Numbered from the stretch's first letter, positions 6,180 to 22,219 are shown. The stretch: DNA of 32,000 nt from Candidatus Woesearchaeota archaeon (GCA_964554415.1 CAZKON010000005.1:1-32000), one strand, 5' to 3'. Notes: generated by a model from the sequence alone, not told the origin. Numbers and translations: made by a program.

Positions 6180-6203
6180 TAAAGCTACAACACAGCATTA
6201 CCT

Positions 6204-7054: not shown

Positions 7055-7076
7055 CTTTATTACTAACATAAGTAAT

Positions 7077-9343: not shown

Positions 9344-12300
9344 TTACGGATTCTCTACATACTCTTCGCCATATCCAAATGTCCCTGACGATGAAGGCTC
9401 TGCCAATATCTGAATACTTCCACTAAATAAATCTGCGTATTTCTTTCCCTGCAAAGCAAGGAGATGATTGTGTATCACAATTGGAAGAGAGAGTGCGTTA
9501 ATCACTGATTCTTCTATGTTGATAATACCGTACTCGCTCACACTCCCGATTTTCTGTACTTGTGTCTCTGTTTTGATACGTATAAAGAATGTGTTACCAA
9601 TCAAATAAATGTCTAGTGGTATCTCTCCAGCATAAACAATATCCGCAGAAACACCATCAGGCGTTTTGCCAGCATGAAGGGAATAAACACCAACATCTTT
9701 TGCTTCACTGGAAGATTTTTCTTTGACTTCTTGATTCAACTCAGGCAGTTTTTCAGTCATGCGCTCTTTTTTCAGCAAATGTATCTCCGCAAGCTGTCGT
9801 GCAATTGCAGAATATACTCTCCCTTCAAGATACAAAAGCTGAGCTTTGTGATAATTCAGATATAATGAATTTCTTACAGTTCCTGCTCTTACAAGGATTG
9901 CCTGAATTTCAGTCAATTCAGATGTAGTAAGATTCCCTCCTCCTCGCGCGCTGAGACTTGTTTCCACATGTTCAACACTGCCCTGAAGCGCGTTAAGTTC
10001 TGTATTCGCCTCTTCTTCTCTTAACAGCACACCTCCTTTCTCCAGATTCTCTCTTTGTACTTTTTCCAGAGCTTGCAGAGTCGCATTTTTAACACCCAGA
10101 TTATTATCAGTGATTGCATTATCAACACTTTTTTTGTCAAGCCAGCACATAACTTTCTCTCCATCACATCGCCCGACAGGAACGAATCGCGTAGGCTCAG
10201 TTCCTGTTCCAGGATTTTCAGTTGCACAAATGCGGACTACTCCTCTTCTATAGATTTCAGGATTAAAAGCTTCCTGTGCTCCCTGTTGCAAATTAGGATT
10301 CAGCAAGGCAGTTGCACTTGTGCTTCCGCTGATGCATTCTTTTTCAGATGTAACAGTGCTTTCCTTGATTTGCTCAGCTACAATTGCATCTCTGACATAA
10401 TTTACTGCAAAACTTGTTGAAACCTGCTTAAACCCGCACTTTTCTTCACCGTTAAGATTAACACAAAGTTCTTGGTATCCTTCAGGAGCAGTGAAATCAC
10501 GAGTCTCATCTCTATAATCCCCTTTCTTTACAAATCCAGAAGCAACCTGAATAATAGGGCTTACAGCATAATATGATGATTGTGGTGGGCTCTTCAGATA
10601 AACTCGGTAATAAGCTCCCTGATCTTTGCCTGCGTATAGGTGATAATAAACTTTGTAGTTTGCAGTAGCAGGTATAGTTACATCACTGTATTTAACACTG
10701 CTAAAGTAAGCATGAAACTGTGGCGGACTGTCAGGAGCTAATACTGTCTTTAGCGATGTAGGTGCCCTCATAGATATAAAGCTCTTGCAGAATTCCCCGC
10801 CAGCTTCCTCAACAGAACGCGCTTGGAATGCCTTAAACGCATTCACACCATATACCTGAGTGAAGTAATTAACAGATTGCTGCATATTCTGCCAGGCACC
10901 CATCACAGTCAGATATTCTCCTCCGCCTCGCACTCCCTGCCCATAAGCAGTCTCAAGCAGTCTTGGCACTAGCACTTTTGCCAGGGGGGCAAGTTGTCTC
11001 CAGAAGAATTCGCAAGTATAAACCGAATAAAGCTGGTCGCAAATTCCGACTAATTGTCCGCTCTTTACGCTCTCTTGTAAGCAATCTCTATGTGCTTTCA
11101 ATATAGAAACATAACTATCTATGCCTGCATGAATGCCAGTAAGGCACACAGGAACCTTCACCTCTGGAAAGTTTGGCATGCAAAGCAGCGTGCTTCCGAT
11201 TATTCCTGACTGCACCACATCCGCAACAGGATACTTCCCCCCGAAATCGCAGCGTGTAGCAGGACAGATAACAGGGTCGCATAAGTTAAATATCAAATTA
11301 CATTCGCCAGGGGACATAAAGTCTTGGCATTGCGCAGCAGGCACGCTTACTGCAGGCTTGCCAACTCTAATGTCTCCAGTTCCTGCAATAGTAACTCTGC
11401 TGTTTCCATGTTGTCTTGCCGCCTGCTCAAGTGCCTCGCGTGCGCGCACAACAAGTGCACGTGCCTCTTCATCGCTCAATCCAGGGAACTTATTCAAAGG
11501 CTGTCCAGTTTGCAGATTTACCATCTCACATACGTCATCGCCTAAACCCTCAAGGAACTGTTCTCTTTTGTTTGCCCCGACATTGCAAAGCCAGAAACTA
11601 GTCGCTCGTCCAGATGCGTCGAAAGCTCCAATGCCCCCGAATGCAGGCAATATCTGTTTTGCAGCAGCATACCATCCACGTTGCAAATCAAAAGGCACAA
11701 TCGCAGGCATACCTTTATAAGGTTCTCTGTCGTAGAATTTTACTTCAGGATTTTCATATTTATTGAAATAAGATAGCTGTTGTTGTGAGTATAATGTACC
11801 TAATCCATACGTATTAGAAAAAGTTGCAGGAGATATTTCATTCAGAGTATCTCCATCATGAATACTATAAACCTCATTTGCTCCGCTGCCCTCTTTCTTC
11901 ATTACGCTCCGTATAGTATATGCTCCATTGCCCGCATCCTGCAAACCAAGAAGGTATGTGCCTCCGCTGTACTGCTTCCCATCTTTAGACGACGCAGGAG
12001 GTACAACAACACTTGCAAGATGAGTCACTCCATCTGCAAAAACCATGTCTGCCTTGCTTCCGCGTTGCACAGCGCTCACAGGAGCAACTTCAACATATCT
12101 CTCTCCTTGGCTTTTCGGCGTTGCAGTAAACGGAGAAGGGAATCCTTGCGCTCTAAGTGATTGTTCAGATTTATATTTCTCCGTCAAAGCATGATTAATG
12201 CTGATGCTTGAGCCGATTGTTTCAAGTCTCTGCTCGACATTTGCCTTAGTGCCGTTAGAGATGCCGCTGTTTTTCTGCAGCAATAAATTTTGATGCAATT

Positions 12301-14851
12301 CACGCAATGAATCATAACTATATTCTCCATCTTCATATCCTCTAGAGTTTGCGAGCAGCTCTTTCACAGGAACAGACCTTACACCTTTAGAGTCTTTGAT
12401 TTGTACCATATCCTCACCATGATTATCAAGCAGATACTGGCGATATTTTGGCACAGACTGGCTTGGCTCAATTGAACTGCTCAAAAATCCCGAAGTTTTA
12501 GGCACGCCTGCCTCGGCTTCTTTGATAGCTGAATTTACTTTCTGAATCTGTGCGTCAGCTATTTGCACATCACGATTTATTTCATCAGCATGCTTGCTAA
12601 AACACGCATCAAGTGATTTTGATGCCCCACTTGATACTTCTACTTGGCATCTGGCAGTCCACCCTTTATCTCCGCGCATTATTTGTTGTCGTGCAAATCC
12701 TGTCCCAGATAAACCAGTCACAAAATTCTTCACAGTCAAAGCACCCGCAGTAGCAAAGCACGCACCTTTCAAGCCAGAGACAACATTCCCGAGAGTGTTT
12801 GAAATCTGCTCCCACTTCCTGATGCTTTCATTTATAGTTGCAATCTTGCTTAATGTTGCATTTGGTGCAAGTTGAATAGCACGTTTTTCAATGCCTATGC
12901 GTATAGTTACATTCGTTCTGGTTTCTGTCCCCCATGCTTGTGGAGTTAAAGTGATTCTGGCAGAACGTTGCACATCAAGGCGTTGCAGAACAACAGGCTG
13001 CCCGCACACTACAACTGATTCACCAATACGCAAAGTAGGTTTGAAGTTCCTCTGAGATTCAGCAGGACAGCTAGTGCTGACAGTTATAAAATCAGACTCA
13101 ATACGCTGAATTGTCAAAGTCCGTTTATTCTTGTCAGTGCTTTGTGGAAGTTCATAAACCGTTCCTGCCTTCACAGTCACAGCTTTTGCTCCGATAGCAA
13201 GTGTTGCACTAGATTGTTCTCTCGGTTCTTCTATTGAAACAATCCTAATAGTTCTGAATCTGCCATTTATATCAACCGCAGAAGCTGCTCTTGAGAAATC
13301 AATATGCTCGCTCCGCGCAATCTCCTGTCTGTATGCTTCACTTTCAGGAGCATTAGGATATGTAGTCACATACATCTGAAGCAAACGCAGGCGCTGCTGC
13401 TCTTTGTTAAGAGTTGTTGCTAATGCAATTGCTTCTGCCAATGCATTCTGCCCATAAGGATTCCTTGCCGCAGAAGCTTTCTCAGCAGGATAATCTCGCG
13501 CTATCTGCTCAAACGCATGCAATGCCTCGCTAAAGTTCCCTTCAACTCCTTGAACCCCTGACCATGATTGATCTATAACAATATCTTCAGGAGCTACATG
13601 ACTCTCTCTCTCAAGCTGTCTGTATGCAATCATTGTTTCCCGCAATTGCTTTGTCATAGCATTATTAATAGCGAGCCTCCACTCTCCACTTGCCCACTGG
13701 TACAACAAATCAGAAGAAGTCAGATTATATTTCACTCCTTCAATTTCTACAAGATATGATTCTCCGTCTCTATAAGGGAAATTCTTTGTCCCATCATTTG
13801 CAACAAATAAGTCAAATGTCGCAGCCCCTTTAGCTCGCAGCTGAAGAACAAGAGTCTCTGAAAGGCAGCGCAAAGTTACGTTTCCGGTTCCAACGCTGGT
13901 GTTATCAAGCCTTATACTGGAAACAGTGCATTGACCATTTAAAATCCTGCTCCCTTCATAAACATCTACTACATCTGTGCTGTTGCTGCTTGTAATAGCT
14001 AGCCTTACTCGAGTCTGGCTGGCTTCATATCCAGTATAATCAACATACAATGCTGCACGGCAATAGCTCTCCGGCACAAATATCTCGCGTGACCTTGTTC
14101 CTTTTTCAACATGAGTAGTAGCAATTTGCCTGTCCCCGCTATAAATTGAAATATCTGCACCGCGCTCATCTGCATTTAATAACCTAATAAAATATTTCCC
14201 GTTCCAGAAGCTTTGGCGCTGGCTTTTATCAGACCATGCAAAATCATTCTGTTCTTCCAGCACAAACTCAGTTCTCCCGATGCCCAGTGCATTGCCTGCA
14301 TCATATTCAAGCCGCCCGCTTAAGTTAACAACTACTGATTCAGGTAATTCGCTTTCTCGTGGCTGCTTTTGAAGAACAATAACAGCATATCCTATATTAT
14401 TCAAAAGTGGGTCCCCCAGCAACCTATTACGAGTCACCAATCCGGCGCGCGCAGGGTGGAATCCAACAGCCACAACACCTTTTGGATACTCTTTATCAAA
14501 TCCAATACTCTTAATTTCTTTTACATTAAGAAGTGGGTTGATTTTTAACGCGTCAATCTGGCAGAATACAGGCACGTTTTGTTCTGCAAGCAAATCGCTT
14601 CTCACAACAGCAGGCTGGCATCCGGCAGGAGCGACCTGCAAGACAAAATCTTCCCGGTTCTTGCACTGAGAAGAATCATCTAAAATAGGCCAATAAGTGT
14701 TTGCCTGCGCACCATAATATGTTTGAAAACTTGCTTGATAGCTCGGTCTCGTCACATAAGTTGCAGAGCTATAAACCTGCGCGTTGGCAAAAACCGTGAA
14801 TAAAACAATAAAAATACAAATCAAAAATAACAGAATCGCATATCTTCTCAT
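9344..14851 (-). CDS. Giant secreted protein (1835 aa), family not recognised
   Basis: Uninterrupted 5.5-kb ORF with a Sec-type signal (ILLFLICIFIVLFTVFANA-QV). Its start overlaps the upstream stop as ATGA. No C-terminal TM segment. Confidence 0.9.
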   Translation of the reverse strand: MRRYAILLFLICIFIVLFTVFANAQVYSSATYVTRPSYQASFQTYYGAQANTYWPILDDSSQCKNREDFVLQVAPAGCQPAVVRSDLLAEQNVPVFCQIDALKINPLLNVKEIKSIGFDKEYPKGVVAVGFHPARAGLVTRNRLLGDPLLNNIGYAVIVLQKQPRESELPESVVVNLSGRLEYDAGNALGIGRTEFVLEEQNDFAWSDKSQRQSFWNGKYFIRLLNADERGADISIYSGDRQIATTHVEKGTRSREIFVPESYCRAALYVDYTGYEASQTRVRLAITSSNSTDVVDVYEGSRILNGQCTVSSIRLDNTSVGTGNVTLRCLSETLVLQLRAKGAATFDLFVANDGTKNFPYRDGESYLVEIEGVKYNLTSSDLLYQWASGEWRLAINNAMTKQLRETMIAYRQLERESHVAPEDIVIDQSWSGVQGVEGNFSEALHAFEQIARDYPAEKASAARNPYGQNALAEAIALATTLNKEQQRLRLLQMYVTTYPNAPESEAYRQEIARSEHIDFSRAASAVDINGRFRTIRIVSIEEPREQSSATLAIGAKAVTVKAGTVYELPQSTDKNKRTLTIQRIESDFITVSTSCPAESQRNFKPTLRIGESVVVCGQPVVLQRLDVQRSARITLTPQAWGTETRTNVTIRIGIEKRAIQLAPNATLSKIATINESIRKWEQISNTLGNVVSGLKGACFATAGALTVKNFVTGLSGTGFARQQIMRGDKGWTARCQVEVSSGASKSLDACFSKHADEINRDVQIADAQIQKVNSAIKEAEAGVPKTSGFLSSSIEPSQSVPKYRQYLLDNHGEDMVQIKDSKGVRSVPVKELLANSRGYEDGEYSYDSLRELHQNLLLQKNSGISNGTKANVEQRLETIGSSISINHALTEKYKSEQSLRAQGFPSPFTATPKSQGERYVEVAPVSAVQRGSKADMVFADGVTHLASVVVPPASSKDGKQYSGGTYLLGLQDAGNGAYTIRSVMKKEGSGANEVYSIHDGDTLNEISPATFSNTYGLGTLYSQQQLSYFNKYENPEVKFYDREPYKGMPAIVPFDLQRGWYAAAKQILPAFGGIGAFDASGRATSFWLCNVGANKREQFLEGLGDDVCEMVNLQTGQPLNKFPGLSDEEARALVVRAREALEQAARQHGNSRVTIAGTGDIRVGKPAVSVPAAQCQDFMSPGECNLIFNLCDPVICPATRCDFGGKYPVADVVQSGIIGSTLLCMPNFPEVKVPVCLTGIHAGIDSYVSILKAHRDCLQESVKSGQLVGICDQLYSVYTCEFFWRQLAPLAKVLVPRLLETAYGQGVRGGGEYLTVMGAWQNMQQSVNYFTQVYGVNAFKAFQARSVEEAGGEFCKSFISMRAPTSLKTVLAPDSPPQFHAYFSSVKYSDVTIPATANYKVYYHLYAGKDQGAYYRVYLKSPPQSSYYAVSPIIQVASGFVKKGDYRDETRDFTAPEGYQELCVNLNGEEKCGFKQVSTSFAVNYVRDAIVAEQIKESTVTSEKECISGSTSATALLNPNLQQGAQEAFNPEIYRRGVVRICATENPGTGTEPTRFVPVGRCDGEKVMCWLDKKSVDNAITDNNLGVKNATLQALEKVQRENLEKGGVLLREEEANTELNALQGSVEHVETSLSARGGGNLTTSELTEIQAILVRAGTVRNSLYLNYHKAQLLYLEGRVYSAIARQLAEIHLLKKERMTEKLPELNQEVKEKSSSEAKDVGVYSLHAGKTPDGVSADIVYAGEIPLDIYLIGNTFFIRIKTETQVQKIGSVSEYGIINIEESVINALSLPIVIHNHLLALQGKKYADLFSGSIQILAEPSSSGTFGYGEEYVENP

Positions 14852-16710
14852 GTGAATACCACCTCTGCTCGTTGCAGTGCAAATAATTCATAATTTGTCT
14901 GAAGCTGCGTCAGCGTTGTTGGTTTAGGTAAGGCAGGCACACTAATCTCCAGTGTTCCCTTTTCTAGTTCTGCAGGAAGAAGATAAGCACTTACACTTCC
15001 TCCGCCAACAAGAGCAGTATCAACCTTTGTTTCAGGCAGGTTAATATCATAACATTGCTCACGAGTTCCTCCAAACAATCCTGCAAAACCTGAACGAGGT
15101 ATAGTTGTGCATTCTCTGCTTGTGCTTGCAGGAATCGTAACGCCTGCATTGCCATATACATAAACAGTAATATTATAAGCACCCTCGCTAAGGCTGACAT
15201 TCTTCACTTCAGGATATACAACGCTGGTAGAGCCAGGACCTTCGAATGAAATAAGAATCAGTCCGGAAGTATTGGTTGCTCCGATAATTTCAACATCAAG
15301 ATTCAAAGTATATACTCTATCAAGAATAATTGTGCTTTCTTGAGAATCTACGCTTGAGAAAATTTGGCGTTGGGAAGCATATCCTTCAGCACTAACAGAA
15401 AGATAACCATTAAGGCATCCTGGAATCACTCCTTCAACACGACCTCCGGCACTCTTCCCAATCTGACAAATCTGATCAAAACAAGCGTATGCAACTTCTG
15501 CACCATCAATCGGCTTAAGCAGCACATCTCGGACATTTACGCTAACTGGTTGCGAAGCAAATGCGCATAGCTCTTCCTGCTCTTGCTCTTCAGCAATAGA
15601 TTGAGGGGATGCTTGTCTTGGAAGATTGTTATCTACACTCACAACCAAAGGAAATTGAAATAACTCATCATCTCTCGAGAGCTGCACCATGACAGGATAA
15701 CTAAAATCATATACAAAATGGTATGGCGCATAGCAAAATCCAAGTACGCCAAGTCCTTGCTGCAAGCCAACAGGTTCAGCAATCATAATTTCTTGTGATG
15801 CTCCGGAAATTTCTGTTTTGCTGGGCCATTTCGTAGAATACAGGAAGCTAACATGGTCATCAACATTATGCTCAACTACAAAATACTTGTTCTGGCTATT
15901 TTGAAGAGTATAATAGTCTCCCTTCATTTTTACAGCCGCAACATTCGCAGCCAGGCCTTCATGTAATTTTGAAACAACATCGCGCGTTTTCCAGACTTTC
16001 GGCGCGCAGCTCGTCTCAACGCCATCAACAGGTGCATAAAGATACAAAACATCACTCGAGTAATTTTCCAAAAAAGCGCTTTTTTGTTCATACTGATAAA
16101 TTGACAAAGCTTGGCTGTATAGTGCTCCAAACCTGCTAGGCACTTTTATGTTATGCGTTGTCCTACGCGAGCTGCCCTTGCTATCGCTCACAACAATATT
16201 TTGATTAATGCGAACACCAATAATATTATCATTAATCTCAATATCAACTTCAGGCAGCCCCATTGTAACATTTACACCCTGCTCTGCAAATATAGAGAAA
16301 TCACATTTCTGGATTGTAGACTCAATATGCTCTGCAAGCTCCTTCTCAATATCCTGCTTTTTAGGCACATTTTCTTTGATTACTCCATTGCTGCTGGGAT
16401 ATTGCCAATAAGGCACAGGAAAACCTAAAAAGTCAAGTTGTGATGAAAAAGGAGCATAATCGCTGCCAGGAATGAAAGAAGGAGTTTTGATGTATCCTCC
16501 CTGCGTTCCGGCAAGAGTTAAAGCTGCGCGCGTTTCTAGAACAACACACTCTTCATAATACTGAAACACCTGATCCGAGACGCGCTCTCCGCCTCTGAAT
16601 TCAGAAAGCTGCCACGCAACTGCCGCAATTCCAATCACTGCAACCAAAACAATAGAAATAATCACAAAAATACTTATCTGCCCTTTCTTCCATTGTATGG
16701 ATAACCTCAT
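14848..16710 (-). CDS. 620-aa extracellular protein with prepilin-like (class III) signal peptide
   Basis: N-terminus MRLSIQWKKGQISIFVIISIVLVAVIGIAAVAW. A beta-sandwich-like segment ...GYLSVSAEGYASQRQIF resembles the CarboxypepD_reg/PEGA pattern. Confidence 0.85.
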   Translation of the reverse strand: MRLSIQWKKGQISIFVIISIVLVAVIGIAAVAWQLSEFRGGERVSDQVFQYYEECVVLETRAALTLAGTQGGYIKTPSFIPGSDYAPFSSQLDFLGFPVPYWQYPSSNGVIKENVPKKQDIEKELAEHIESTIQKCDFSIFAEQGVNVTMGLPEVDIEINDNIIGVRINQNIVVSDSKGSSRRTTHNIKVPSRFGALYSQALSIYQYEQKSAFLENYSSDVLYLYAPVDGVETSCAPKVWKTRDVVSKLHEGLAANVAAVKMKGDYYTLQNSQNKYFVVEHNVDDHVSFLYSTKWPSKTEISGASQEIMIAEPVGLQQGLGVLGFCYAPYHFVYDFSYPVMVQLSRDDELFQFPLVVSVDNNLPRQASPQSIAEEQEQEELCAFASQPVSVNVRDVLLKPIDGAEVAYACFDQICQIGKSAGGRVEGVIPGCLNGYLSVSAEGYASQRQIFSSVDSQESTIILDRVYTLNLDVEIIGATNTSGLILISFEGPGSTSVVYPEVKNVSLSEGAYNITVYVYGNAGVTIPASTSRECTTIPRSGFAGLFGGTREQCYDINLPETKVDTALVGGGSVSAYLLPAELEKGTLEISVPALPKPTTLTQLQTNYELFALQRAEVVFT

Positions 16711-16838
16711 TTCTTCACCCCGCGTCGTACTCTCTCTCGTATAAGCTCAACAATTTCACTATTGATATCCTGTTCTAAATTAACTTTAAACTTTGCCCAT
16801 AATTCTTCATCCTCAATAAGAAGCAAGTATTTCTTCAT
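16707..16838 (-). CDS. 43-aa ribbon-helix-helix-like protein (not in the ORF track)
   Basis: Minus-strand translation MKKYLLLIEDEELWAKFKVNLEQDINSEIVELIRERVRRGVKK. The stop overlaps the next ATG (ATGA). The strand-helix-helix pattern is typical of CopG/RHH proteins. Confidence 0.55.
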   Translation of the reverse strand: MKKYLLLIEDEELWAKFKVNLEQDINSEIVELIRERVRRGVKK

Positions 16839-16868
16839 GCGCCCCTCTCCAAAAAAAGCAATACAAAA

Positions 16869-16925
16869 GACTATAAAAACCTTTCTTATTTATTAAATAA
16901 GTTAGTTACTTAGTTACTAATTAGC
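16869..16925 (-). promoter_or_regulatory. BRE/TATA (GAAAGGTTTTTATAG on minus) plus upstream palindrome and direct repeats
   Basis: The TATA centre is about 37 nt from ATG 16838, implying a leader of about 10 nt (GGAGAGGGGCGC). Upstream lie a 17-nt palindrome CTTATTTATTAAATAAG (16885-16901) and TTAGTTAC x2 (16902-16917). Confidence 0.5.
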
Positions 16926-16975
16926 AATAACCTGCGTATATCATATACTTTGAAAATTTTTGATTCCTGAGCGCA

Positions 16976-17451
16976 CTCAAGAATGCAATAGTTATCATTC
17001 TTAAGATATTGAAGACTTTGAAAAACCCCTATAGAGAGCTTTGAATAACCCTCCAATTTCGATGTCCCTCGAGGGTCGTCAGAAATCCATGATTTCTGAG
17101 CGCCTCGAGACACCAAGAACTTCTGTTCTTGGATGCATTCAAAAATCAAAGATTTTTGATGATCGGAGATTCTCTTAGTTTCAAAGCGGTTCGATAGAGG
17201 ACTTTGGGGTTTTTCAAAGTCCTCTATAATATAAAAAAACGATGCGCCCTCCGCACCTTAAAACGTTAGAAACTGAAAGTTTCTGAGCGCCTCGAGAATC
17301 GGAGAGTTTCTCAGCCTCGAGAACTACTGTTCTCTACGGCCGTCAAAAACCTCTGGTTTTTGAGGGATGCGGTTTGGGGAGGCGCTCGTTTCATCAGGAA
17401 TTCTGTGAATTCCTGAATGCCATCGAGAATGCGAACGCAGAGCATTCTCGA
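16976..17451. repeat. Dense array of at least 11 short hairpin modules
   Basis: Stems read directly at 16976-17005, 17079-17099, 17113-17132, 17139-17159, 17194-17227, 17266-17286, 17319-17334, 17343-17363, 17394-17416 and 17423-17451. Confidence 0.85.
17030..17227. mobile_element. MITE-like element, copy 1 (imperfect 16-nt inverted termini TATAGAGRRCTTTGAA)
   Basis: The left end TATAGAGAGCTTTGAA and the reverse complement of the right end TATAGAGGACTTTGAA match at 14 of 16 positions. The first ~81 nt are nearly identical to 20026-20106. Confidence 0.45.
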
Positions 17452-17477
17452 GGTTTTGATGTTCAATGTTATATCTT

Positions 17478-17864
17478 TTAAGAAGATACTTTTGGCGTAC
17501 AATCCTGCGGACAATTAAAACTATGTTCTTTTTGTCCGCAGATACCATCACCGCACTTAATACATACACTATCATAAAACATATCTGGTAATCGAACGGA
17601 CCCATCTCCAATGATTTTATATTGTTTTTCTAAAGCATCCTCAACTGCAGTGAGTCCTGTGCAGCAAGGGACATCCTTTACTATTTCTGGAGGAGATACA
17701 CCTTTATAAATTAAATTTTTTTCTCCTTCTTTGGCGCATAATGATGTTTTATTACTTAATGGAAGAGGTTGCGGAAAATTACGATTATCAAAAAATAAAT
17801 ACACACCAACTATAATAAGGACGATAATAAGTGTAAACGATAGAACTACTAATTTATTATTCAT
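17478..17864 (-). CDS. Signal-anchored Cys-rich small protein (128 aa)
   Basis: I moved the start to ATG 17864, which overlaps the upstream stop as ATGA. N-terminal TM LVVLSFTLIIVLIIVGVYLFF. C-terminal motif CIKCGDGICGQKEHSFNCPQDC. Confidence 0.65.
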   Translation of the reverse strand: MNNKLVVLSFTLIIVLIIVGVYLFFDNRNFPQPLPLSNKTSLCAKEGEKNLIYKGVSPPEIVKDVPCCTGLTAVEDALEKQYKIIGDGSVRLPDMFYDSVCIKCGDGICGQKEHSFNCPQDCTPKVSS

Positions 17865-18526
17865 TTTTCTTCCTCTGCAATGCACCGTCCATCTTCGCAG
17901 AGGCATTCTATTTTTTCTGCTGCCACTCCATTTTCATCGCAGTAGTATTCAAATAAAGTATCAGAAGATAAATCTGTTCTTTGTATTGGTATGAACCTAT
18001 TCACAAAACTGAAAGGATACCAACAGAAATCAGCAAGAGTCTTTCTTCCTCCTTTGATAAGAAGCTTCCCCTTTTTATCATACTTTAGCCCACCATCAGT
18101 ATCTGTACAGAGGAAAGCCTCCTTATTCCATAATGAAACAAACACTTGAGGAGTATATCCTACAACCTCTCGTGCAAGAATGACATCAACTTGAAGAATG
18201 ATGCCCTCGTTTACATCACTTATTTTATAAGATGAACCCTCATACATTGTATCTGTAACAAACTCATTCCCTTCTTCATCTCTAATTTTAATCTTAGTCT
18301 TCTTTGAATCAACGTACTCTACAGACACAATAAAATTTTGGTTCTGGACAGTTATTTCTTGAGAATATCCTTCAGAAAGCACTATTCTCGTTGGGGCAGG
18401 ACCAGAAGTATCATTTCTCGAAATTACATTTCCAGTTAGTTTTGGTTTGAGAAGAAAGAGAGAAACTCCAATGAGCAGCACAAGAATTATAAAGAAATGG
18501 ATTTTTCTACCTTTACTTTTTCTCAT
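17861..18526 (-). CDS. Signal-anchored secreted protein (221 aa) with a Cys-rich C-terminal domain (CTDTDGG...EYYC...C.C)
   Basis: The minus-strand TATA (plus 18547-18559) lies about 27 nt from ATG 18526. Hydrophobic N-terminus FFIILVLLIGVSLFLL. Confidence 0.7.
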   Translation of the reverse strand: MRKSKGRKIHFFIILVLLIGVSLFLLKPKLTGNVISRNDTSGPAPTRIVLSEGYSQEITVQNQNFIVSVEYVDSKKTKIKIRDEEGNEFVTDTMYEGSSYKISDVNEGIILQVDVILAREVVGYTPQVFVSLWNKEAFLCTDTDGGLKYDKKGKLLIKGGRKTLADFCWYPFSFVNRFIPIQRTDLSSDTLFEYYCDENGVAAEKIECLCEDGRCIAEEEK

Positions 18527-18731
18527 GATAACGTTAAGTATATCTATCTTTTTATATGTTTGTTTTTTCTCTAAATTATAGCCAAGAAATTTAATAATTG
18601 AATAGTTAGTCGTTAGCTATAGCATGATAGCGTATGCTTAAAAATCACCTTCGTTTTTAATAGAAAAACATTTGGCTCACCTATAGAAAGTTGAAATTCA
18701 ATCCGAAGGTTGAAACCTTTAAGGGTTTCTT

Positions 18732-19325
18732 TCAACTACTTGTCATAAAATCAATGCTTTTGTTGTGATGTACCGCTATAAACGCAATAAGTCCGCATAA
18801 TAAAAAAAACATCATCGCCAAGTTAATGATAACAGGCATATCTAAGCGTAAGATTGAAGTACCACTCTCTGCGCGTACACTTTCCAGAAGCCCATTATTC
18901 CTCAGAGCATTCTCTGAAACATTTACGACAATCCAGGTTCCAATTCCACCTATACTCTGGGCAGGTTGCATCAAAAGCACCCCTCTATAAATCCCGGATT
19001 CTTTACTGACAACACAAAAAGGTATAGAAAAACTTCCAGCATTTACCCATACTATCTCAGGATGCTCAACAATTAAACCAACATCGCGAGCTGAAAAAAA
19101 ATAATCTTCCAGATTTCTGCTTGGATTAGCTGACCAAGCGCTTTGCAAAAGAAGTGCATCACTGCCATATACAGAAACATCAAAAGCAGTACAATTTGGG
19201 GTTCCGGCAGTATTCTGCAAAAATATATCTGGAGGAGCGCTAATTTCAATAGCGCAAGCAGGAGGTACAAAGAATAAAGCACAAATCAAAAAGAATAATC
19301 TGATTACACTTTTGTCCGAAGCCAT
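18732..19325 (-). CDS. Secreted protein with a C-terminal TM anchor (197 aa)
   Basis: Signal peptide ending PPACA-IE. C-terminal hydrophobic segment INLAMMFFLLCGLIAFIAV. Lies 6 nt downstream of the preceding gene. Confidence 0.7.
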   Translation of the reverse strand: MASDKSVIRLFFLICALFFVPPACAIEISAPPDIFLQNTAGTPNCTAFDVSVYGSDALLLQSAWSANPSRNLEDYFFSARDVGLIVEHPEIVWVNAGSFSIPFCVVSKESGIYRGVLLMQPAQSIGGIGTWIVVNVSENALRNNGLLESVRAESGTSILRLDMPVIINLAMMFFLLCGLIAFIAVHHNKSIDFMTSS

Positions 19326-19331
19326 AATAAT

Positions 19332-19784
19332 TTACACAGCAGTCGCCCAGAACACGACAGTCGCACGATGGTTGGGAATATTCTGGGGTATGCTATCAGT
19401 ATACTGACGCAAATCTAATTGCGCGTAGAAGTAATCATCTTCACTCTGCCCAATGGCACGAGGACGTGGGATATTCATTTTGAATGTCCCTATTGGCTTG
19501 AATTCTTCAGTAGTCCGTCTGGCGAGAATTAAATTAGAAAAAATTTTATCCTGTGTTTCTAGCCGTGGAATAAATTGAACAGCAGTCGTGCCGGTATTAT
19601 TGACAACTATCTTAACCCTTTCAGAAACAAATCCGGGGCTTACCCTGCCAAAAGAAACCATCTCTGGAACTTGCACGCGCACAACCGGCGCAAGTACATT
19701 CGCATCTACAATCATGCGCTCGCTTTGTTCAGCAGCAGCGAAAGGCACTAAGAAAAAAATAAATGCAAGCAACCAATATCTCAT
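19332..19784 (-). CDS. Small secreted beta-rich protein (150 aa)
   Basis: I moved the start to ATG 19784. The minus-strand TATA (plus TATTTAAA, 19806-19813) is 26 nt away. Signal MRYWLLAFIFFLVPFAAA-EQ. Confidence 0.7.
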   Translation of the reverse strand: MRYWLLAFIFFLVPFAAAEQSERMIVDANVLAPVVRVQVPEMVSFGRVSPGFVSERVKIVVNNTGTTAVQFIPRLETQDKIFSNLILARRTTEEFKPIGTFKMNIPRPRAIGQSEDDYFYAQLDLRQYTDSIPQNIPNHRATVVFWATAV

Positions 19785-19939
19785 TATATACAAAAGCAGT
19801 AAATATATTTAAATCTTCGTATATAAATTATATACGAGCTTAATCCATTATACCCTCTCGTTCCTCTCTTGCTGCGGAGTTCCTCGGCTAAAGAGCTGCG
19901 GACTTCCTCGCTGCGGAGTCGCTGCGCTAACTCGCCACA

Positions 19940-20010
19940 TGGCCCTGCCCAGAATCGAACTGGGGCTTCGTCCACGTCAAGGATGCGTTCTACCATTAGA
20001 CTACAGGGCC
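19940..20010 (-). tRNA. tRNA-Val (anticodon GAC)
   Basis: Acceptor GGCCCTG/CAGGGCC, T arm CCCAG-TTCGATT-CTGGG, anticodon loop TTGACGT. My hand fold leaves one A.C pair in the anticodon stem and one C.A pair in the D stem. Confidence 0.8.
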
Positions 20011-20025
20011 TTCTTTCTGCAAGCG

Positions 20026-20257
20026 TATAGAGAGCTTTGAATAACCCTCCAATTTCGATGTCCCTCGAGGCTCGTCAGAAATCATGGATTTCTGAGCGCC
20101 TCGAGAATCGGAGATTCTCTTAGTGTCAAGAACCACCCACTGAAGTAGGTGGCGTGTTGTGGTTCTTGAGCACAGTCAAGAATTACGTTTGCGCAATCCC
20201 CCTACTTTAGTTTGTGGTTAAGCAAACGTAATTCTTGATGTTTCAAAGTCCTCTATA
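20026..20257. mobile_element. MITE-like element, copy 2 (same termini as 17030-17227, different internal hairpin cargo)
   Basis: Left end identical to copy 1 for 45 nt. Right end TTCAAAGTCCTCTATA. Interior holds hairpins at 20075-20095 and 20126-20169, and a 17-bp stem at 20176-20192/20222-20238. Confidence 0.45.
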
Positions 20258-20307
20258 ACTATATAGCTAACGACATTAAAATCTGATTGTTTTGTCGTTA
20301 GCTATCA

Positions 20308-20497
20308 AGTGAAAGACGTACAATATTGTTTATTACATTTTGAGTTGAATACTCCGCAGCTTGCTGCTGCTCAAAATGTAATTAGAGAATTCCGTCTTGA
20401 ACCGAGTGCAATACCCCGCAGCTTGCTGCGGAGAGAGCGAAGCGAACGATGGGATGCACGAGGTTAGGAATTCTCTTTATTACTTACGTCTTTCACT
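20308..20497. ncRNA. Candidate structured element or RNA (multi-stem, about 190 nt), strand unresolved
   Basis: Five nested perfect stems. P1 is 20308-20320/20485-20497 (13 bp). P2 is 20332-20344/20370-20382 (13 bp). P3 is 20384-20393/20467-20476 (10 bp). P4 is 20400-20410/20455-20465 with a tandem G.A/A.G. P5 is 20416-20421/20426-20431. Confidence 0.3.
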
Positions 20498-20530
20498 ATA
20501 TATAAGTCTTTTTCTTGAGGCTGAAATAAG

Positions 20531-22081
20531 CTAATCCATGCGTAAAACTAAAGTTCCCTTCCTCACAAGTTTTTTCATCTCAGTTTCAGTTAATTTATAG
20601 GGAGAATGTAATAAAGGCCTGAATTCGATAAAATATGGAGACCCTTTGTTATAATCCGCACATTCTGCCATGCCCAAGCCAGTAGGTAATTTAGCGATGA
20701 GATTGCTGATAACTGCTCCATGTCTTTCTCTTACACGTTTGATATCACCTTCATATCTCGTATGCACCTGTATCTCCGTGCCTATGTTTCCTCTGATAGC
20801 TCCTTTAAAGTCAGTCAGTACCTGTGAAATCATCAGCAATCCAATGCCCCACTTCCTGAATTCACGCACAGCCTGCTCAAGTTTTGTGTATGCCTTTCTA
20901 CCTCCATACTTCGGCAGCAGTCTGTGAACTTCGTCAAGTACAAGCAAGGATTGCAATGAGCCTGATTCTGGCAAGTTAGCACTATAAATCTGACTTAAAG
21001 CAGCATCAATAAATTCATCAACTTTACGGGGAGTCAGCTTATCAAGGCGGAACACAGTCATGCCTTTCATGAAAAGATAATGTATAATGTCAACATGCAT
21101 TGTTGCATCAGTAATTTCAATAACATATGGATTAAACGCTTGAGGAAGTCCAAGACCAAATTTATTATATTTCTTGCGCATACGTTCATCTGTATTCTTC
21201 TTAGCAAATCCCGACCATTGCCCAATCGGATCAAAGACAATAACAGGCAAGCTGCGTTTCAATAATTCTTCAGCAATAACCATCCCTGTAATTGTCTTCC
21301 CGCTTCCAGTACCTCCGGCAATCAAAGTGTGTCTGTTCAATTGCGTATGATCCAGATACGCTTTCTCATCGCTGTCAGCAACAATTCCAACGTATGCATA
21401 TTTTGATTGTGGAAGCGTAAAAAAGTCAGGGAAAGGATACTGGCTGTTTTTCTGTCTCTCTTCGTATTTTTTCTTAAGCAAGCCTTTTCTAAGCCAAAAA
21501 ACATAGTAAACTCCGGCGAATATAACAAAAGAAGCAGCAGCAATGCTAAGAAAGAAAGAAAGATGTTCCTGCAGCCATGGCGTTGCAATCATACGCTCAA
21601 TAGTAATAGGATAAGATATTATAACAGAATTTTGAGAAGTGCTTATATTGACTAAAAAAACATAATTCCCCTCTGGAACAACATCTGGCAATCCCAAACG
21701 GCTTGTTAAAATAAAAGACTCATTCTTGTCAACTCTCTCATCTTTCCGTAGAAAGCTCTGGTTGCTATTCGCGTTAACAATTTCATAAATAAAGATAAAA
21801 GGCTCAGTATTTTCCTGATTCGCACGTGTTACATTAACGCTAAAAAGAATAGCCCTGCCAGGAGAAACTTGAGAGCCGCGGGCAACCTGTAAAGAAACAT
21901 TTGCCAGTACACCTCCCTCCGCATTAGTCAGCACTCCAGTCAAAGAAGATTGAGATTTTGGCTCCAGTGGAAATGATACACGTCCGAATGCTCCAATAAT
22001 TGATGAATTGTACACCCACGCAATAATAAGAATACCTAATATCAAAGTGAAAACAAAAAAAATGATTTTATTTTTTGGCAC
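20531..22081 (-). CDS. Membrane-anchored HerA/FtsK/VirB4-like P-loop ATPase (DUF87-type), 516 aa
   Basis: Walker A IAGGTGSGKT, Walker B LLVLDEVH, RKWGIGLLMISQ block. Two TM segments (residues ~5-25 and ~175-197) flank a predicted external domain of about 150 aa. GTG start preceded by GGTGAG. Confidence 0.85.
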   Translation of the reverse strand: MPKNKIIFFVFTLILGILIIAWVYNSSIIGAFGRVSFPLEPKSQSSLTGVLTNAEGGVLANVSLQVARGSQVSPGRAILFSVNVTRANQENTEPFIFIYEIVNANSNQSFLRKDERVDKNESFILTSRLGLPDVVPEGNYVFLVNISTSQNSVIISYPITIERMIATPWLQEHLSFFLSIAAASFVIFAGVYYVFWLRKGLLKKKYEERQKNSQYPFPDFFTLPQSKYAYVGIVADSDEKAYLDHTQLNRHTLIAGGTGSGKTITGMVIAEELLKRSLPVIVFDPIGQWSGFAKKNTDERMRKKYNKFGLGLPQAFNPYVIEITDATMHVDIIHYLFMKGMTVFRLDKLTPRKVDEFIDAALSQIYSANLPESGSLQSLLVLDEVHRLLPKYGGRKAYTKLEQAVREFRKWGIGLLMISQVLTDFKGAIRGNIGTEIQVHTRYEGDIKRVRERHGAVISNLIAKLPTGLGMAECADYNKGSPYFIEFRPLLHSPYKLTETEMKKLVRKGTLVLRMD

Positions 22082-22111
22082 GTTTAGCTCACCATATCCA
22101 AAAGTCCCGTC

Positions 22112-22125
22112 ACGTTTATAAACGT
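22112..22125. promoter_or_regulatory. Perfectly palindromic TATA element ACGTTTATAAACGT between divergent tRNA-Thr and the ATPase gene
   Basis: The centre is 27-28 nt from the tRNA 5' end (22146) and about 37 nt from GTG 22081. Confidence 0.5.
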
Positions 22126-22145
22126 TCCTTGCTCTCCACGATTAA

Positions 22146-22219
22146 GCCTCTATAGCTCAGTCGGATAGAGCATCAGTTTTGTAAACTGAGGGTCGGGGGT
22201 TCGAATCCCCCTAGAGGCT
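22146..22219 (+). tRNA. tRNA-Thr (anticodon TGT)
   Basis: Fully paired cloverleaf: GCCTCTA/TAGAGGC, D arm GCTC/GAGC, anticodon arm TCAGT-TTTGTAA-ACTGA, T arm GGGGG-TTCGAAT-CCCCC. Confidence 0.95.

What the first reader, a model, noticed from the sequence alone, without database searches (positions are those of the whole stretch)
9344..22125. Candidate undescribed cell-surface or translocation gene cluster: TM-anchored HerA/FtsK-type ATPase, four small exported proteins, RHH, prepilin-like 620-aa protein and 1835-aa giant
Nine consecutive protein genes lie on the minus strand. Apart from the small RHH-like ORF, every product is predicted to be exported or membrane-anchored (N-terminal hydrophobic segment). 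The sub-operons are tightly coupled by ATGA overlaps at 14848-14851, 16707-16710 and 17861-17864, and by a 6-nt gap at 19326-19331. Each sub-operon has its own canonical TATA box. Beyond the ATPase P-loop core and a generic beta-sandwich, I cannot assign any product to a known family. No PilB/PilC, archaellum or S-layer hallmark is present. An export-type or DNA-translocase-type ATPase sitting beside a pilin-like protein and a giant anchorless secreted protein suggests an adhesion, host-contact or DNA/protein transfer device. This resembles Ced- or VirB4-type logic, but with different partners. One caveat: the ATPase is separated from the rest by tRNA-Val and repeat islands, so a functional link rests on co-orientation and proximity only.
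Basis: partly seen in the sequence, partly recalled or inferred. Interest (0 to 1): 0.85.

Follow-up and report, generated by a model that had tools for sequence, protein, structure and literature searches.

The report
Conserved giant surface-protein operon in Pacearchaeota
The nine genes are not one machine: three of them (a tiny regulator-like protein, a pilin-like membrane-anchored protein and a giant secreted protein with a swappable tip) form an uncharacterised operon conserved across one group of tiny DPANN archaea, probably a cell-surface contact structure.

Summary
All nine minus-strand ORFs, their overlaps, hydrophobic N-termini, tRNA-Val and the repeat islands are real. The cluster is a composite, not a nine-gene device.

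Across 83 related loci, the giant gene directly follows the 620-aa gene in 82. The 43-aa gene precedes it in 71. Stop/start overlaps are conserved. The 153/197-aa pair is accessory (13 of 57 loci with enough upstream sequence). The 221- and 142-aa genes lie in a 1.86-kb insertion that the closest relative lacks.

The HerA-like ATPase is next to the module only in the nearest relatives. It is 5 kb of housekeeping genes away in the next relative and absent from the other loci. Elsewhere it has its own partners (ParA/MinD).

The 620-aa protein has a conserved class III (prepilin-type) signal, [KR][KR][GA]|Q plus a hydrophobic helix, followed by an alpha/beta domain and beta-sandwiches. The giant's core matches nothing in Pfam, NCBIfam, PDB (sequence or fold) or BFVD, yet it diverges about as slowly as GINS. 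Its C-terminal tip is replaced between 92%-identical strains.

Best reading: a membrane- or filament-anchored surface complex that presents a variable contact tip. The anatomy is shown; the function is inferred.

The parts
16707..16838 (-). Core gene 1. A 43-aa cytoplasmic, highly charged protein (MKKYLLLIEDExLWxxFK..DINSEI..LI plus a basic tail). The pattern is RHH-like (strand-helix-helix). Its stop overlaps the start of the 620-aa gene.
   Evidence: An intact homologue lies directly upstream of the 620-aa gene in 71 of 83 loci at 55-82% identity. The junction overlaps in 66 of 70 loci. No Pfam or PDB RHH hit. hhalign against textbook RHH domains gives probability 3.7%, E 0.012, on helix B only.
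14848..16710 (-). Core gene 2. A 620-aa protein with a class III (prepilin-type) signal-like N-terminus (leader, KKG|Q, ~22 hydrophobic residues), a conserved alpha/beta domain (~residues 40-370) and a string of beta-sandwich domains (~385-620).
   Evidence: More than 1000 homologues at 44-90% identity, with no Pfam domain. The motif [KR][KR][GA]Q[VLMI][ATS]IF[VI]I[IV]A was anchored in 92 of 120 members: position -1 is G/A in 90 of 92 and position -2 is K/R in 89 of 92. AF2 model has pLDDT 79.5. Foldseek PDB returns only generic Ig-like strings: TIE, SlaB 8qox_B at E 4e-5, and Gram-positive pilins, all with TM ~0.12. No sequence relative in the PDB.
9344..14851 (-). Core gene 3. A 1835-aa secreted giant with a Sec-type signal peptide and no other hydrophobic anchor. 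It has three conserved blocks (residues ~40-330, 630-770 and 1000-1600) and 31 Cys, with more than 25 Cys positions invariant across 36 homologues.
   Evidence: More than 529 homologues at 39-72% identity over ~90% of the length, all named hypothetical. It lies directly downstream of the 620-aa gene in 82 of 83 loci. The junction overlaps in 45 of 53 loci. No Pfam, NCBIfam, PHROG, PADLOC or PDB-sequence hit. The AF2 model of residues 600-1640 has pLDDT 68 and no fold match in the PDB (best E 0.095) or BFVD (best E 0.0097, probability 0.09). An exhaustive profile search finds 1088 cluster representatives, 963 of them at E<=1e-30.
9344..9696 (-). Hypervariable C-terminal tip of the giant (residues ~1719-1835), which follows a helical stalk (~1590-1715).
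   Evidence: The window giant and P0485 are 92% identical over residues 1-1718. After that, P0485 has a +185-aa cassette and the last ~100 aa are only 42% identical. This stretch has no DNA match to L087, whereas 9697-16923 is 87% identical. The largest family insertions map after residues 1717 and 1835. Some members carry Trypsin_2 or TSP_3 domains there.
19332..19784 (-). Accessory gene. A 150/153-aa secreted single beta-sandwich protein with an 'NNTG' motif.
   Evidence: Homologous and collinear in L001 and L002 (33-35% identity, E 1e-23 to 5e-28). Present in 17 of 83 loci. A relaxed HMM search adds none. The pair is present in 13 of 57 loci with at least 2.5 kb of upstream sequence.
18732..19325 (-). 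Accessory gene. A 197-aa type I membrane protein with a signal peptide, a beta-sandwich ectodomain ('SPP' motif, conserved Cys pair) and a C-terminal TM.
   Evidence: 25-29% identical to its collinear homologues (E 8e-13 and 3e-14). Present in 18 loci. Alignment is A6. TM at 157-188.
19940..20010 (-). tRNA-Val(GAC). The conserved 5' neighbour of the 153/197 pair, part of the chromosomal frame rather than of the protein system.
   Evidence: Found by ARAGORN and Rfam. It lies directly upstream on the same strand in 12 of 12 loci carrying the pair. It is 100% identical to L087 over 90 nt.
16924..18786 (-). Strain-specific 1.86-kb insertion. It carries the 221-aa gene (17861-18526), the 142/128-aa gene (17478-17864/17906) and a repeat island (~16850-17480). 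It is not part of the conserved module.
   Evidence: In the closest relative L087 the corresponding interval is 35 nt, and the 195-aa gene is followed after 74 nt by the 43-aa gene. The 221-aa gene is found in 0 of 83 loci and the 142-aa gene in 1 of 83.
20026..20531 (.). Repeat island between tRNA-Val and the ATPase. It shares the ~110-nt palindrome-rich repeat with 17030-17140.
   Evidence: The equivalent interval in L087 is ~58 nt.
20531..22081 (-). 516-aa membrane HerA/DUF87-type ATPase (TM, extracellular beta-sandwich, TM, P-loop domain). A neighbour only, not a member of the conserved module.
   Evidence: HerA_C scores 58.2 bits (cut-off 22) and DUF87 45.8 bits (cut-off 23.2). CedD, CedB and VirB4 models fall far below their cut-offs. 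Synteny is covered. The gene fills the gap between divergent tRNA-Thr (22145-22220) and tRNA-Val, which are only 80 nt apart in L034.

Best explanation
The real unit is a three-gene, translationally coupled operon. It is conserved in the DPANN archaea that carry it, whose records are labelled Pacearchaeota, Nanoarchaeota or Woesearchaeota.

- Gene 1 encodes a 43-50-aa cytoplasmic protein. It is probably a small DNA-binding autoregulator or a dedicated cytoplasmic partner.
- Gene 2 encodes a ~620-aa protein. A class III (prepilin-type) N-terminal helix keeps it in the membrane, or lets it join a type-IV-pilin-like assembly.
- Gene 3 encodes a 1,700-2,800-aa Sec-secreted, disulfide-rich giant with no anchor of its own.

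Inferred mechanism. The 620-aa protein is the anchor or adaptor. Its conserved alpha/beta domain binds the conserved N-terminal domain of the giant. The giant's constrained body forms a projecting surface structure that ends in a helical stalk and a rapidly exchanged tip. The tip contacts a partner, most plausibly the host cell surface of these presumed episymbionts.

The 153/197-aa beta-sandwich pair is a lineage-restricted accessory. The 221- and 142-aa genes, the repeat islands and the HerA-type ATPase are neighbours by insertion or rearrangement.

Shown: operon anatomy, conservation, coupling, signal motifs, lack of any sequence or fold match for the giant, and tip replacement. Inferred: physical 620-giant complex, surface location, and a contact or recognition function.
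For: Synteny. The giant directly follows the 620-aa gene in 82 of 83 loci and the 43-aa gene precedes it in 71 of 83. Relatives of the 620-aa protein occur in 253 species-level genomes.

Coupling. Stop/start overlaps are conserved: 45 of 53 loci for 620->giant and 66 of 70 for 43->620, with a mode of -4.

Chromosomal setting. The module is embedded in a conserved housekeeping frame, SRP54-FtsY-GINS ... module ... tRNA-Leu-TFIIB-S8e. It is absent from viral contigs, phages and plasmids.

Export signals. The 620 family has a class III-like motif. The giant has a Sec-type signal peptide and no anchor.

Constraint. The giant's core has a mean p-distance of 0.42, against 0.46 for GINS in the same genomes.

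Co-variation. The 620-aa protein co-varies most strongly with the giant's N-terminal domain: r = 0.78-0.83, partial r = 0.61-0.69 after controlling for GINS or TFIIB. The control pairs 620~GINS|TFIIB and TFIIB~giant core|GINS give 0.30 and 0.04.

Tip variability. Identity drops from 92% to 42%, with a +185-aa cassette, between close strains. That stretch has no DNA match. Some members carry Trypsin_2 or TSP_3 domains in their tails.

Literature. Pacearchaeota-specific families without any functional prediction, many of them membrane-bound or extracellular, are reported as a set (Module 222, PMC8204110).
Against: - There is no direct evidence of interaction, localisation or expression.
- The mirror-tree signal is confounded by shared history of adjacent genes. 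The housekeeping control pair GINS~TFIIB also gives a partial r of 0.62.
- Class III processing is not shown. The motif is also compatible with an uncleaved signal anchor.
- No prepilin peptidase or pilus-assembly genes appear in the window or in the Pfam-annotated flanks of L001, L002, L084 and L087.
- The most conserved Cys-rich stretch of the giant (~residues 1197-1393) is modelled with pLDDT below 50, so the 'no fold match' result is weaker there. Residues 1-600 were not modelled.
- High core conservation is unusual for a mere adhesin. It could indicate an enzymatic or machine-like role that was not captured here.
- A host association of these organisms is assumed from general DPANN knowledge and was not tested.
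Confidence: 0.5

Rival explanations
1. Two-component S-layer, analogous to Sulfolobales SlaA/SlaB. The giant forms the outer lattice and the 620-aa protein is the membrane-anchored stalk.
For: A large secreted protein and a smaller membrane-anchored beta-sandwich protein are encoded in one operon, and that operon was found in 253 species-level genomes of the clade. SlaB (8qox_B) is among the top Foldseek hits of the 620-aa model (E 4.2e-5). The module has a chromosomal, housekeeping-like setting.
Against: - The SlaB match has TM 0.13-0.17 and is shared with any Ig-like string, such as TIE or Gram-positive pilins.
- The giant has no fold match to SlaA or to any S-layer protein.
- The giant's modelled body is mixed alpha/beta with long helical hairpins, not a string of beta domains.
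- N-glycosylation sequons are not enriched: 0.65 per 100 aa against 0.63 expected, with a family mean of 0.46.
- Core divergence is as low as that of GINS, which is atypical for S-layer proteins.
- The anchor is N-terminal and class III-like rather than a C-terminal TM.
- The window also encodes a sequon-rich (1.89 per 100 aa), C-terminally anchored 848-aa FG-GAP protein. That protein is a more conventional envelope glycoprotein candidate.
Confidence: 0.17
2. Type IV pilus-like tip complex. The 620-aa protein is a modular minor pilin incorporated at the tip of a filament assembled by machinery encoded elsewhere. The giant is a secreted adhesin held at that tip, in the manner of CofB-CofJ or TcpB-TcpF.
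For: A conserved [KR][GA]|Q plus hydrophobic helix N-terminus. The model shows a long N-terminal helix followed by a beta-meander and bulky appended domains. Modular pilins with appended adhesive modules are an established concept (PMC8179133).
Against: No pilus ATPase, platform protein or prepilin peptidase is present in the window or in the annotated flanks of four related loci. Foldseek did not return type IV pilins. Many archaeal class III-signal proteins are not pilus subunits (established knowledge on Sulfolobus sugar-binding proteins).
Confidence: 0.15
3. One reading: a nine-gene adhesion or DNA/protein-transfer device powered by the TM-anchored HerA/FtsK-type ATPase (Ced- or VirB4-like logic).
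For: Co-orientation and proximity in the window. The closest relative L087 shows the same adjacency. In other DPANN, this ATPase family sits in operons with small exported proteins and sometimes a giant protein.
Against: - The ATPase is present in 1 of 83 loci by tblastn and 3 by HMM.
- In L084 it is separated from the module by EndA, eIF-1A and LeuRS.
- In L085 it lies beside SRP54 and ParA, with no 620/giant pair within 8 kb.
- The distant ATPase operons contain no homologue of the 620-aa protein, the giant or the 43-aa protein.
- The gene lies between a divergent tRNA pair that is only 80 nt apart elsewhere.
- NCBIfam CedB, CedD and VirB4 scores are 20-43 bits against cut-offs of 600-700.
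- The 221- and 142-aa genes are an insertion.
Confidence: 0.03
4. Polymorphic-toxin-like secreted effector. The conserved body delivers a variable C-terminal effector domain against competitors or hosts.
For: A sharp identity break and cassette replacement at the C-terminus between 92%-identical strains. Some members have trypsin-like peptidase domains in their tails.
Against: No same-strand immunity-like gene follows the giant. The downstream genes are on the opposite strand and differ between loci. The last ~100 aa are homologous across the family (29-50% identity) rather than unrelated toxin modules. No toxin domain is detected in the window protein.
Confidence: 0.07

Closest known systems
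Sulfolobales S-layer pair SlaA/SlaB (PDB 8qox)
   Same: An operon encoding one very large secreted protein plus a smaller membrane-anchored protein built of beta-sandwich domains. The 620-aa model hits SlaB weakly (E 4.2e-5).
   Different: No homology. The anchor is an N-terminal class III-like helix, not a C-terminal TM. The giant is a mixed alpha/beta, Cys-rich protein with no fold match. Sequons are not enriched. The core is highly conserved and the tip is hypervariable.
Modular or minor type IV pilins with tip-bound partners (S. sanguinis PilB, PMC8179133; CofB-CofJ and TcpB-TcpF, from my own knowledge)
   Same: A prepilin-type N-terminus followed by bulky appended domains. A separately secreted partner protein is encoded next door.
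   Different: No pilus machinery is linked. The partner is ~2,000 aa, far larger than CofJ or TcpF. Processing and filament incorporation are untested. Foldseek found no pilin-fold match.
Giant surface proteins of other DPANN (nanohaloarchaeal SPEARE proteins, from my own knowledge; Pace/Woesearchaeota murein-transglycosylase giants fam00969, PMC8204110)
   Same: Very large, lineage-restricted extracellular proteins in genome-reduced DPANN archaea, proposed to mediate host contact.
   Different: Those proteins carry recognisable domains (protease, adhesion, nuclease or lytic transglycosylase). This giant has none in its conserved body. It also comes with an obligatory 620-aa partner and a 43-aa partner.
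Ced DNA-import system and VirB4/HerA-type secretion ATPases
   Same: The neighbouring 516-aa protein is a membrane-anchored HerA/DUF87-superfamily P-loop ATPase.
   Different: It fails the CedB, CedD and VirB4 equivalog models by a large margin. It is not syntenic with the module. No CedA-like polytopic partner is present.
Pacearchaeota-specific 'Module 222' protein families (Castelle et al. 2021, PMC8204110)
   Same: A set of co-occurring, Pacearchaeota-restricted families without any functional prediction. The paper notes that many DPANN lineage-specific families are membrane-bound or extracellular. The three families here probably belong to this set.
   Different: Membership could not be verified because the supplementary table is truncated in the held copy. 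The paper does not describe the operon, the class III signal or the tip variability.

Membership tests
HerA/FtsK-superfamily ATPase (516-aa protein) | P-loop domain matching the HerA_C / DUF87 models above their curated thresholds | tested here: met
   HerA_C 58.2 bits (cut-off 22) and DUF87 45.8 bits (cut-off 23.2). PADLOC HerA models score at E 1e-14.
Ced DNA-import system / VirB4-type T4SS | ATPase that meets the CedB, CedD or VirB4 equivalog models | tested here: not met
   CedD 42.9 bits against 600, CedB 20.4 against 700, VirB4_CagE 21.1 against 643.
Ced DNA-import system / VirB4-type T4SS | Conserved linkage of the ATPase with the other system components | tested here: not met
   The ATPase is in 1-3 of 83 loci. 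It is separated from the module by housekeeping genes in L084. It lies elsewhere in L085, L086, L089 and L090.
Class III (prepilin-type) signal peptide proteins / type IV pilin-like | Short charged leader, [KR][GA] cleavage motif, then ~20 hydrophobic residues | tested here: met
   Leader mode 5-10 aa. Position -2 is K/R in 89 of 92 and -1 is G/A in 90 of 92. Q at +1 is invariant in A1. Positions +2 to +22 are hydrophobic.
Class III (prepilin-type) signal peptide proteins / type IV pilin-like | Cleavage by a prepilin peptidase (PibD/FlaK/EppA type) | not testable with these tools
   This needs N-terminal proteomics or an in vitro assay. Whether the genomes carry a peptidase gene could not be scanned.
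Class III (prepilin-type) signal peptide proteins / type IV pilin-like | Linked pilus-assembly genes (PilB/FlaI ATPase, PilC/FlaJ platform) | tested here: not met
   There are none in the window or in the Pfam-annotated +/-10 kb flanks of L001, L002, L084 and L087. They could lie elsewhere in the genome.
Class III (prepilin-type) signal peptide proteins / type IV pilin-like | Pilin alpha-beta fold (long N-terminal helix packed on an antiparallel sheet) | tested here: inconclusive
   The model has helices at 10-36 and 42-69 followed by a beta-meander. Foldseek returned no type IV pilin.
Archaeal S-layer (SlaA/SlaB type) | Sequence or fold homology to known S-layer proteins | tested here: not met
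   The giant has no PDB sequence or fold match. The 620-aa protein has only a generic Ig-like match to SlaB, with TM 0.13-0.17.
Archaeal S-layer (SlaA/SlaB type) | Heavy N-glycosylation potential (sequon enrichment) | tested here: not met
   0.65 per 100 aa against 0.63 expected, with a family mean of 0.46.
Archaeal S-layer (SlaA/SlaB type) | Forms a 2-D lattice covering the cell and is a highly abundant protein | not testable with these tools
   This needs cryo-ET and proteomics.
Ribbon-helix-helix (Arc/MetJ/CopG) regulators (43-aa protein) | Match to RHH profiles or structures | tested here: inconclusive
   No RHH family appears in Pfam even at E<=10 and there is no RHH chain in the PDB profile search. 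The strand-helix-helix pattern and the 'NSEI' helix-B cap are consistent with RHH.
Polymorphic toxin systems | Variable C-terminal toxin domain followed by a cognate immunity gene on the same strand | tested here: not met
   A variable tip is present. The downstream genes are on the opposite strand and are not conserved. No toxin domain is found in the window protein.
Mobile element / virus-borne module | Occurrence on viral contigs, phages or plasmids, or in variable genomic positions | tested here: not met
   No relative on IMG/VR contigs, in phage records or in plasmid records. The chromosomal frame is fixed.

The most novel reading that the evidence does not exclude
The 43/620/giant operon could encode a categorically new archaeal cell-contact machine. 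In this reading the giant's extremely conserved, Cys-rich, helical core (residues ~1175-1400) is a membrane-active or pore/bridge-forming module. It has no sequence or fold relative and is poorly modelled as a monomer. The machine would be anchored on the symbiont by the pilin-like 620-aa protein and aimed at a specific host by the exchangeable tip. That would make it the host-attachment and exchange apparatus of Pacearchaeota, whose hosts and contact mechanism are unknown.
Probability: 0.12. Interest if true: 0.85.

Novelty: new variant of a known kind. Interest (0 to 1): 0.55.

Why it matters
Pacearchaeota are abundant, uncultivated, genome-reduced DPANN archaea. How they touch hosts or surfaces is unknown.

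This work reduces a vague nine-gene cluster to a precise, testable unit. The unit is a coupled three-gene operon of about 7.5 kb, a notable investment for such small genomes. It was found in 253 species-level genomes. Its giant component is as constrained as a replication protein, matches nothing known by sequence or fold, and ends in a tip that is swapped between near-identical strains.

That combination (constrained body, variable tip, pilin-like anchor) is what one expects of a host- or partner-recognition structure. It gives concrete targets for structural prediction of complexes, metaproteomics, cryo-ET and host-range inference from tip types.

The work also removes a misleading link to a HerA-type ATPase. 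Separately, it flags an uncharacterised DPANN operon that combines an ATPase of this family with ParA/MinD.

Tried and rejected
1. **Family libraries.** Pfam, NCBIfam, PHROGs and PADLOC scans of all cluster proteins hit only the ATPase.

2. **PDB sequence searches.** Profile searches with the 620, giant, 153, 197 and 43-aa families found nothing meaningful.

3. **Fold searches.** The 620-aa model returned only generic Ig-like strings. The giant's model of residues 600-1640 matched nothing in the PDB or BFVD.

4. **Viral or plasmid origin.** Rejected.

5. **Wider spread of the 153/197 pair.** I tested whether the pair is more widespread but too divergent to detect. A relaxed HMM search of upstream ORFs added no locus.

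6. **Reviving the ATPase link.** The distant ATPase operons contain proteins of about 171, 196 and 47 aa, sizes that echo the window's 153/197/43 trio. There is no significant similarity. The best signals are beta-sandwich motif matches at E 5.6e-4 to 0.015 in a 35-sequence search.

7. **RHH assignment.** Not confirmed.

8. **Module 222.** Matching the families to Module 222 of PMC8204110 failed because the stored supplementary table is truncated.


Full report
**1. Observation**

The window is archaeal. It encodes TFIIB, ribosomal protein S8e, GINS, FtsY, SRP54 and a RIO kinase.

The 4-nt overlaps at 14848-14851, 16707-16710 and 17861-17864 and the 6-nt gap at 19326-19331 follow from those coordinates.

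Hydropathy scans confirm an N-terminal hydrophobic segment in every product except the 43-aa one. They also show a C-terminal TM in the 197-aa protein and a second TM in the ATPase. The giant has no anchor beyond its signal peptide.

tRNA-Val(GAC) lies at 19940-20010. The two 'repeat islands' share a ~110-nt palindrome-rich direct repeat at 17030-17140 and 20026-20136.

TATA-like octamers precede the four proposed transcription units. That is plausible but weak evidence.

**2. What is conserved and what is not**

The giant has more than 529 full-length homologues at 39-72% identity. The 620-aa protein has more than 1,000 at 44-90%. All come from DPANN MAGs labelled Pacearchaeota, Nanoarchaeota or Woesearchaeota. 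All are named 'hypothetical', and no Pfam domain covers the conserved parts.

A scan of one genome per species found relatives of the 620-aa protein in 253 genomes. I analysed 83 loci: the 80 kept from that scan plus three from look-ups (two of the three, L002 and L003, and the scan locus L021 are copies of one genome).

| Gene | Loci with a homologue |
|---|---|
| Giant, directly downstream of the 620-aa gene | 82 of 83 (the exception is a contig end) |
| 43-aa gene, directly upstream | 71 of 83 |
| 153-aa / 197-aa pair | 17-18 of 83; 13 of 57 with at least 2.5 kb upstream |
| 221-aa gene | 0 of 83 |
| 142-aa gene | 1 of 83 |
| ATPase | 1 of 83 by tblastn, 3 by HMM |

Stop/start overlaps are conserved. 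The 620->giant junction overlaps in 45 of 53 evaluable loci and the 43->620 junction in 66 of 70, with a modal overlap of 4 nt.

A relaxed HMM search did not extend the 153/197 pair to further loci. Where the pair is present, it is always preceded on the same strand by tRNA-Val(GAC) (12 of 12 loci).

The module sits in a conserved chromosomal frame: SRP54 - FtsY - GINS - [variable slot with divergent tRNA-Thr/Tyr and tRNA-Val] - (153/197) - 43 - 620 - giant - tRNA-Leu - TFIIB - S8e. The window has this frame too.

**3. The window is a composite**

The closest relative is L087, whose 620-aa protein is 90% identical. Its order is ATPase - 138 - 195 - 43 - 620 - 2003 aa, and only 74 nt separate the 195-aa gene from the 43-aa gene.

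A DNA comparison shows three window-specific insertions:

- about 450 nt of repeat island within 20026-20531;
- 117 nt at 19819-19935;
- 1.86 kb at 16924-18786, which carries the 221- and 142-aa genes and the other repeat island.

The ATPase occupies the gap between divergent tRNA-Thr and tRNA-Val. Those two tRNAs are only 80 nt apart in L034.

In the next relative, L084 (ATPase 66% identical), the ATPase is separated from the module by tRNA-splicing endonuclease, eIF-1A and LeuRS. In L085 it lies beside SRP54 and a ParA/MinD-type gene, with no 620/giant pair within 8 kb.

In more distant DPANN (L086, L090, partly L089) it belongs to a long operon of its own that includes ParA/MinD. The products of that operon show no significant similarity to the 43-aa, 620-aa or giant proteins.

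The ATPase is a genuine HerA/DUF87-superfamily protein. It fails the CedB, CedD and VirB4 models by a wide margin. The proposed ATPase-driven transfer device is therefore not supported.

**4. The core proteins**

*The 620-aa protein.* The family has a short variable leader, then [KR][KR][GA]|Q[VLMI][ATS]IF[VI]I[IV]A and about 22 hydrophobic residues. Position -1 is G/A in 90 of 92 sequences and -2 is K/R in 89 of 92. The Q is invariant. This is the pattern of archaeal class III (prepilin-type) signals, as established for PibD/FlaK/EppA substrates.

The AF2 model (pLDDT 79.5) shows helices at 10-36 and 42-69, a conserved alpha/beta domain up to about residue 370, and a string of beta-sandwich domains. 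Foldseek returns only generic Ig-like strings: TIE, SlaB and Gram-positive pilins, all with TM about 0.12.

*The giant.* It has a Sec-type signal peptide, three conserved blocks and more than 25 invariant cysteines. The model of residues 600-1640 (pLDDT 68) is mixed alpha/beta with long helical hairpins. The most conserved Cys-rich stretch is helical but poorly modelled.

There is no significant match in the PDB (best E 0.095) or BFVD (best E 0.0097 at probability 0.09). Sequence profiles find nothing in the PDB either.

An exhaustive profile search of 1.84 billion representatives finds 1,088 clusters, 963 of them at E<=1e-30. In the listed hits the full-length proteins share the same architecture. 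The family is compact, with little sign of a tail of distant relatives.

The giant's core diverges no faster than GINS in the same genomes (mean p-distance 0.42 against 0.46).

The C-terminus behaves differently. Against a strain that is 92% identical over residues 1-1718, the tip is only 42% identical and the other strain carries an extra 185-aa cassette. There is no DNA-level match there. Family-wide, the largest insertions map to the same place, and some members carry trypsin-like or thrombospondin type 3 domains there.

*The 43-aa protein.* It is very highly conserved. Its pattern looks like strand-helix-helix, but no profile confirms an RHH fold.

**5. Mechanism**

Shown:

- a chromosomal, vertically inherited, translationally coupled operon;
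- one product with a prepilin-type anchor;
- one giant secreted, disulfide-rich product with a constrained body and an exchangeable tip.

Inferred: the 620-aa protein anchors the giant at the cell surface. The anchor would be in the membrane, or in a pilin-like assembly if the signal is processed. The contact would probably be between the conserved alpha/beta domain of the 620-aa protein and the giant's N-terminal domain. The structure would present the variable tip for contact with a partner surface.

Indirect support comes from a mirror-tree comparison. Divergence of the 620-aa protein tracks the giant's N-terminal domain best (r = 0.78-0.83, partial r = 0.61-0.69 after controlling for GINS or TFIIB). 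Two control comparisons give partial r of 0.30 and 0.04. However, GINS~TFIIB also gives 0.62, so this is only suggestive.

Rivals:

- *S-layer pair.* Argued against by the lack of sequon enrichment, the giant's mixed alpha/beta architecture, the unusually high conservation, and the presence of a more conventional sequon-rich, C-terminally anchored FG-GAP protein in the same window.
- *Pilus-tip complex.* No linked pilus machinery, and processing is untested.
- *Polymorphic toxin.* No immunity gene on the same strand, and the tip is homologous across the family.

**6. Comparison with what is known, and novelty**

The literature search found no description of this operon. Castelle et al. 2021 report a Pacearchaeota-specific set of co-occurring families with no functional prediction, and note that many DPANN lineage-specific families are membrane-bound or extracellular (Module 222; PMC8204110). 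The three families probably belong to that set, but this could not be verified.

In kind, the module resembles two-component surface assemblies (SlaA/SlaB) and modular pilins with secreted partners. It is homologous to none of them, and the giant's body has no sequence or fold relative. I rate it a new variant of a known kind (an anchored giant surface or contact protein). I give a 12% chance that it is something categorically new, namely a membrane-active contact machine.

**7. Verdict**

The 620+giant co-occurrence and the prepilin-like call hold. The ATPase link, the nine-gene unity and the Ced/VirB4 logic do not.
- Interest is 0.55. This is a well-defined, strongly conserved, completely uncharacterised operon in an important uncultivated lineage, but its function remains inferred.

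Noticed in passing
window 2131-8311: Possible element integrated at tRNA-Leu(TAG) (2047-2130). The tRNA 3' end (2115-2132) recurs imperfectly at 8294-8311 (16 of 18 nt). The interval is GC-rich (48-51% against ~40%). It carries an N6/N4 DNA methyltransferase (2564-3388), several orphan ORFs and a nucleotidyltransferase/HEPN pair (7077-8101). In related genomes TFIIB lies about 1 kb beyond the giant's stop; here the gap is 7.6 kb. No integrase was seen.
   Followed up: partly
window 17030-17140, 17280-17327, 20026-20136 (also 19868-19930 and 20342-20433): A palindrome-rich ~110-nt repeat family (core TTTCTGAGCGCCTCGAGA, 3 copies against 0 expected) plus shorter GCAGC..GCTGCGGAG repeats. All lie inside window-specific insertions relative to the closest relative L087. 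They look like MITE-like or insertion-scar sequences.
   Followed up: partly
L086:2203-10066, L090:4351-12553, L089:1058-15368 (relatives of window 20531-22081): In other DPANN (for example an Aenigmarchaeota MAG) the HerA-like membrane ATPase family sits in a conserved same-strand operon. It contains a wHTH protein, several small TM or secreted proteins, ~525-aa and ~306-340-aa proteins, a ParA/MinD-type ATPase and, upstream, a giant protein (beta-helix in L090). This operon appears uncharacterised.
   Followed up: partly
window 29298-31844 (-): An 848-aa FG-GAP-repeat protein with a C-terminal TM anchor (806-839), 17 Cys and the highest N-glycosylation sequon density in the window (1.89 per 100 aa). 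It is a more conventional candidate envelope or S-layer-like glycoprotein.
   Followed up: no
window 8492-9331 (+): A 279-aa orphan protein with a lipobox-like N-terminus (LLFGVTAC) and a 57-nt tandem duplication (8555-8667) that encodes a repeated ...PAS(R/G)IVTK..MHYNN peptide. It converges on the giant's 3' end. It was found in none of the 83 related loci.
   Followed up: no
window 22219-22548 (-) and L084:7369-7668: A small PGPGW-family membrane protein (PF09656) lies between GINS and the ATPase, both in the window and in the 66%-identity relative L084. This adjacency is conserved locally.
   Followed up: no
window 17478-17906 and 17861-18526 (-): The two inserted genes encode small anchored Cys-rich proteins with motifs common in DPANN/CPR secreted proteins: C-terminal CGDGICG...NCPQDC in the 142-aa product and CTDTDGG...EYYC in the 221-aa product. 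The motif resemblance is recalled from memory and was not tested.
   Followed up: no
P0094 residues 1788-1923, P0060 residues 1749-1893, P0117 residues 1854-1876 (homologues of window 9344-14851): Some family members carry a trypsin-like peptidase domain or a thrombospondin type 3 repeat in the variable C-terminal tail. This shows that the tail accepts foreign modules.
   Followed up: yes
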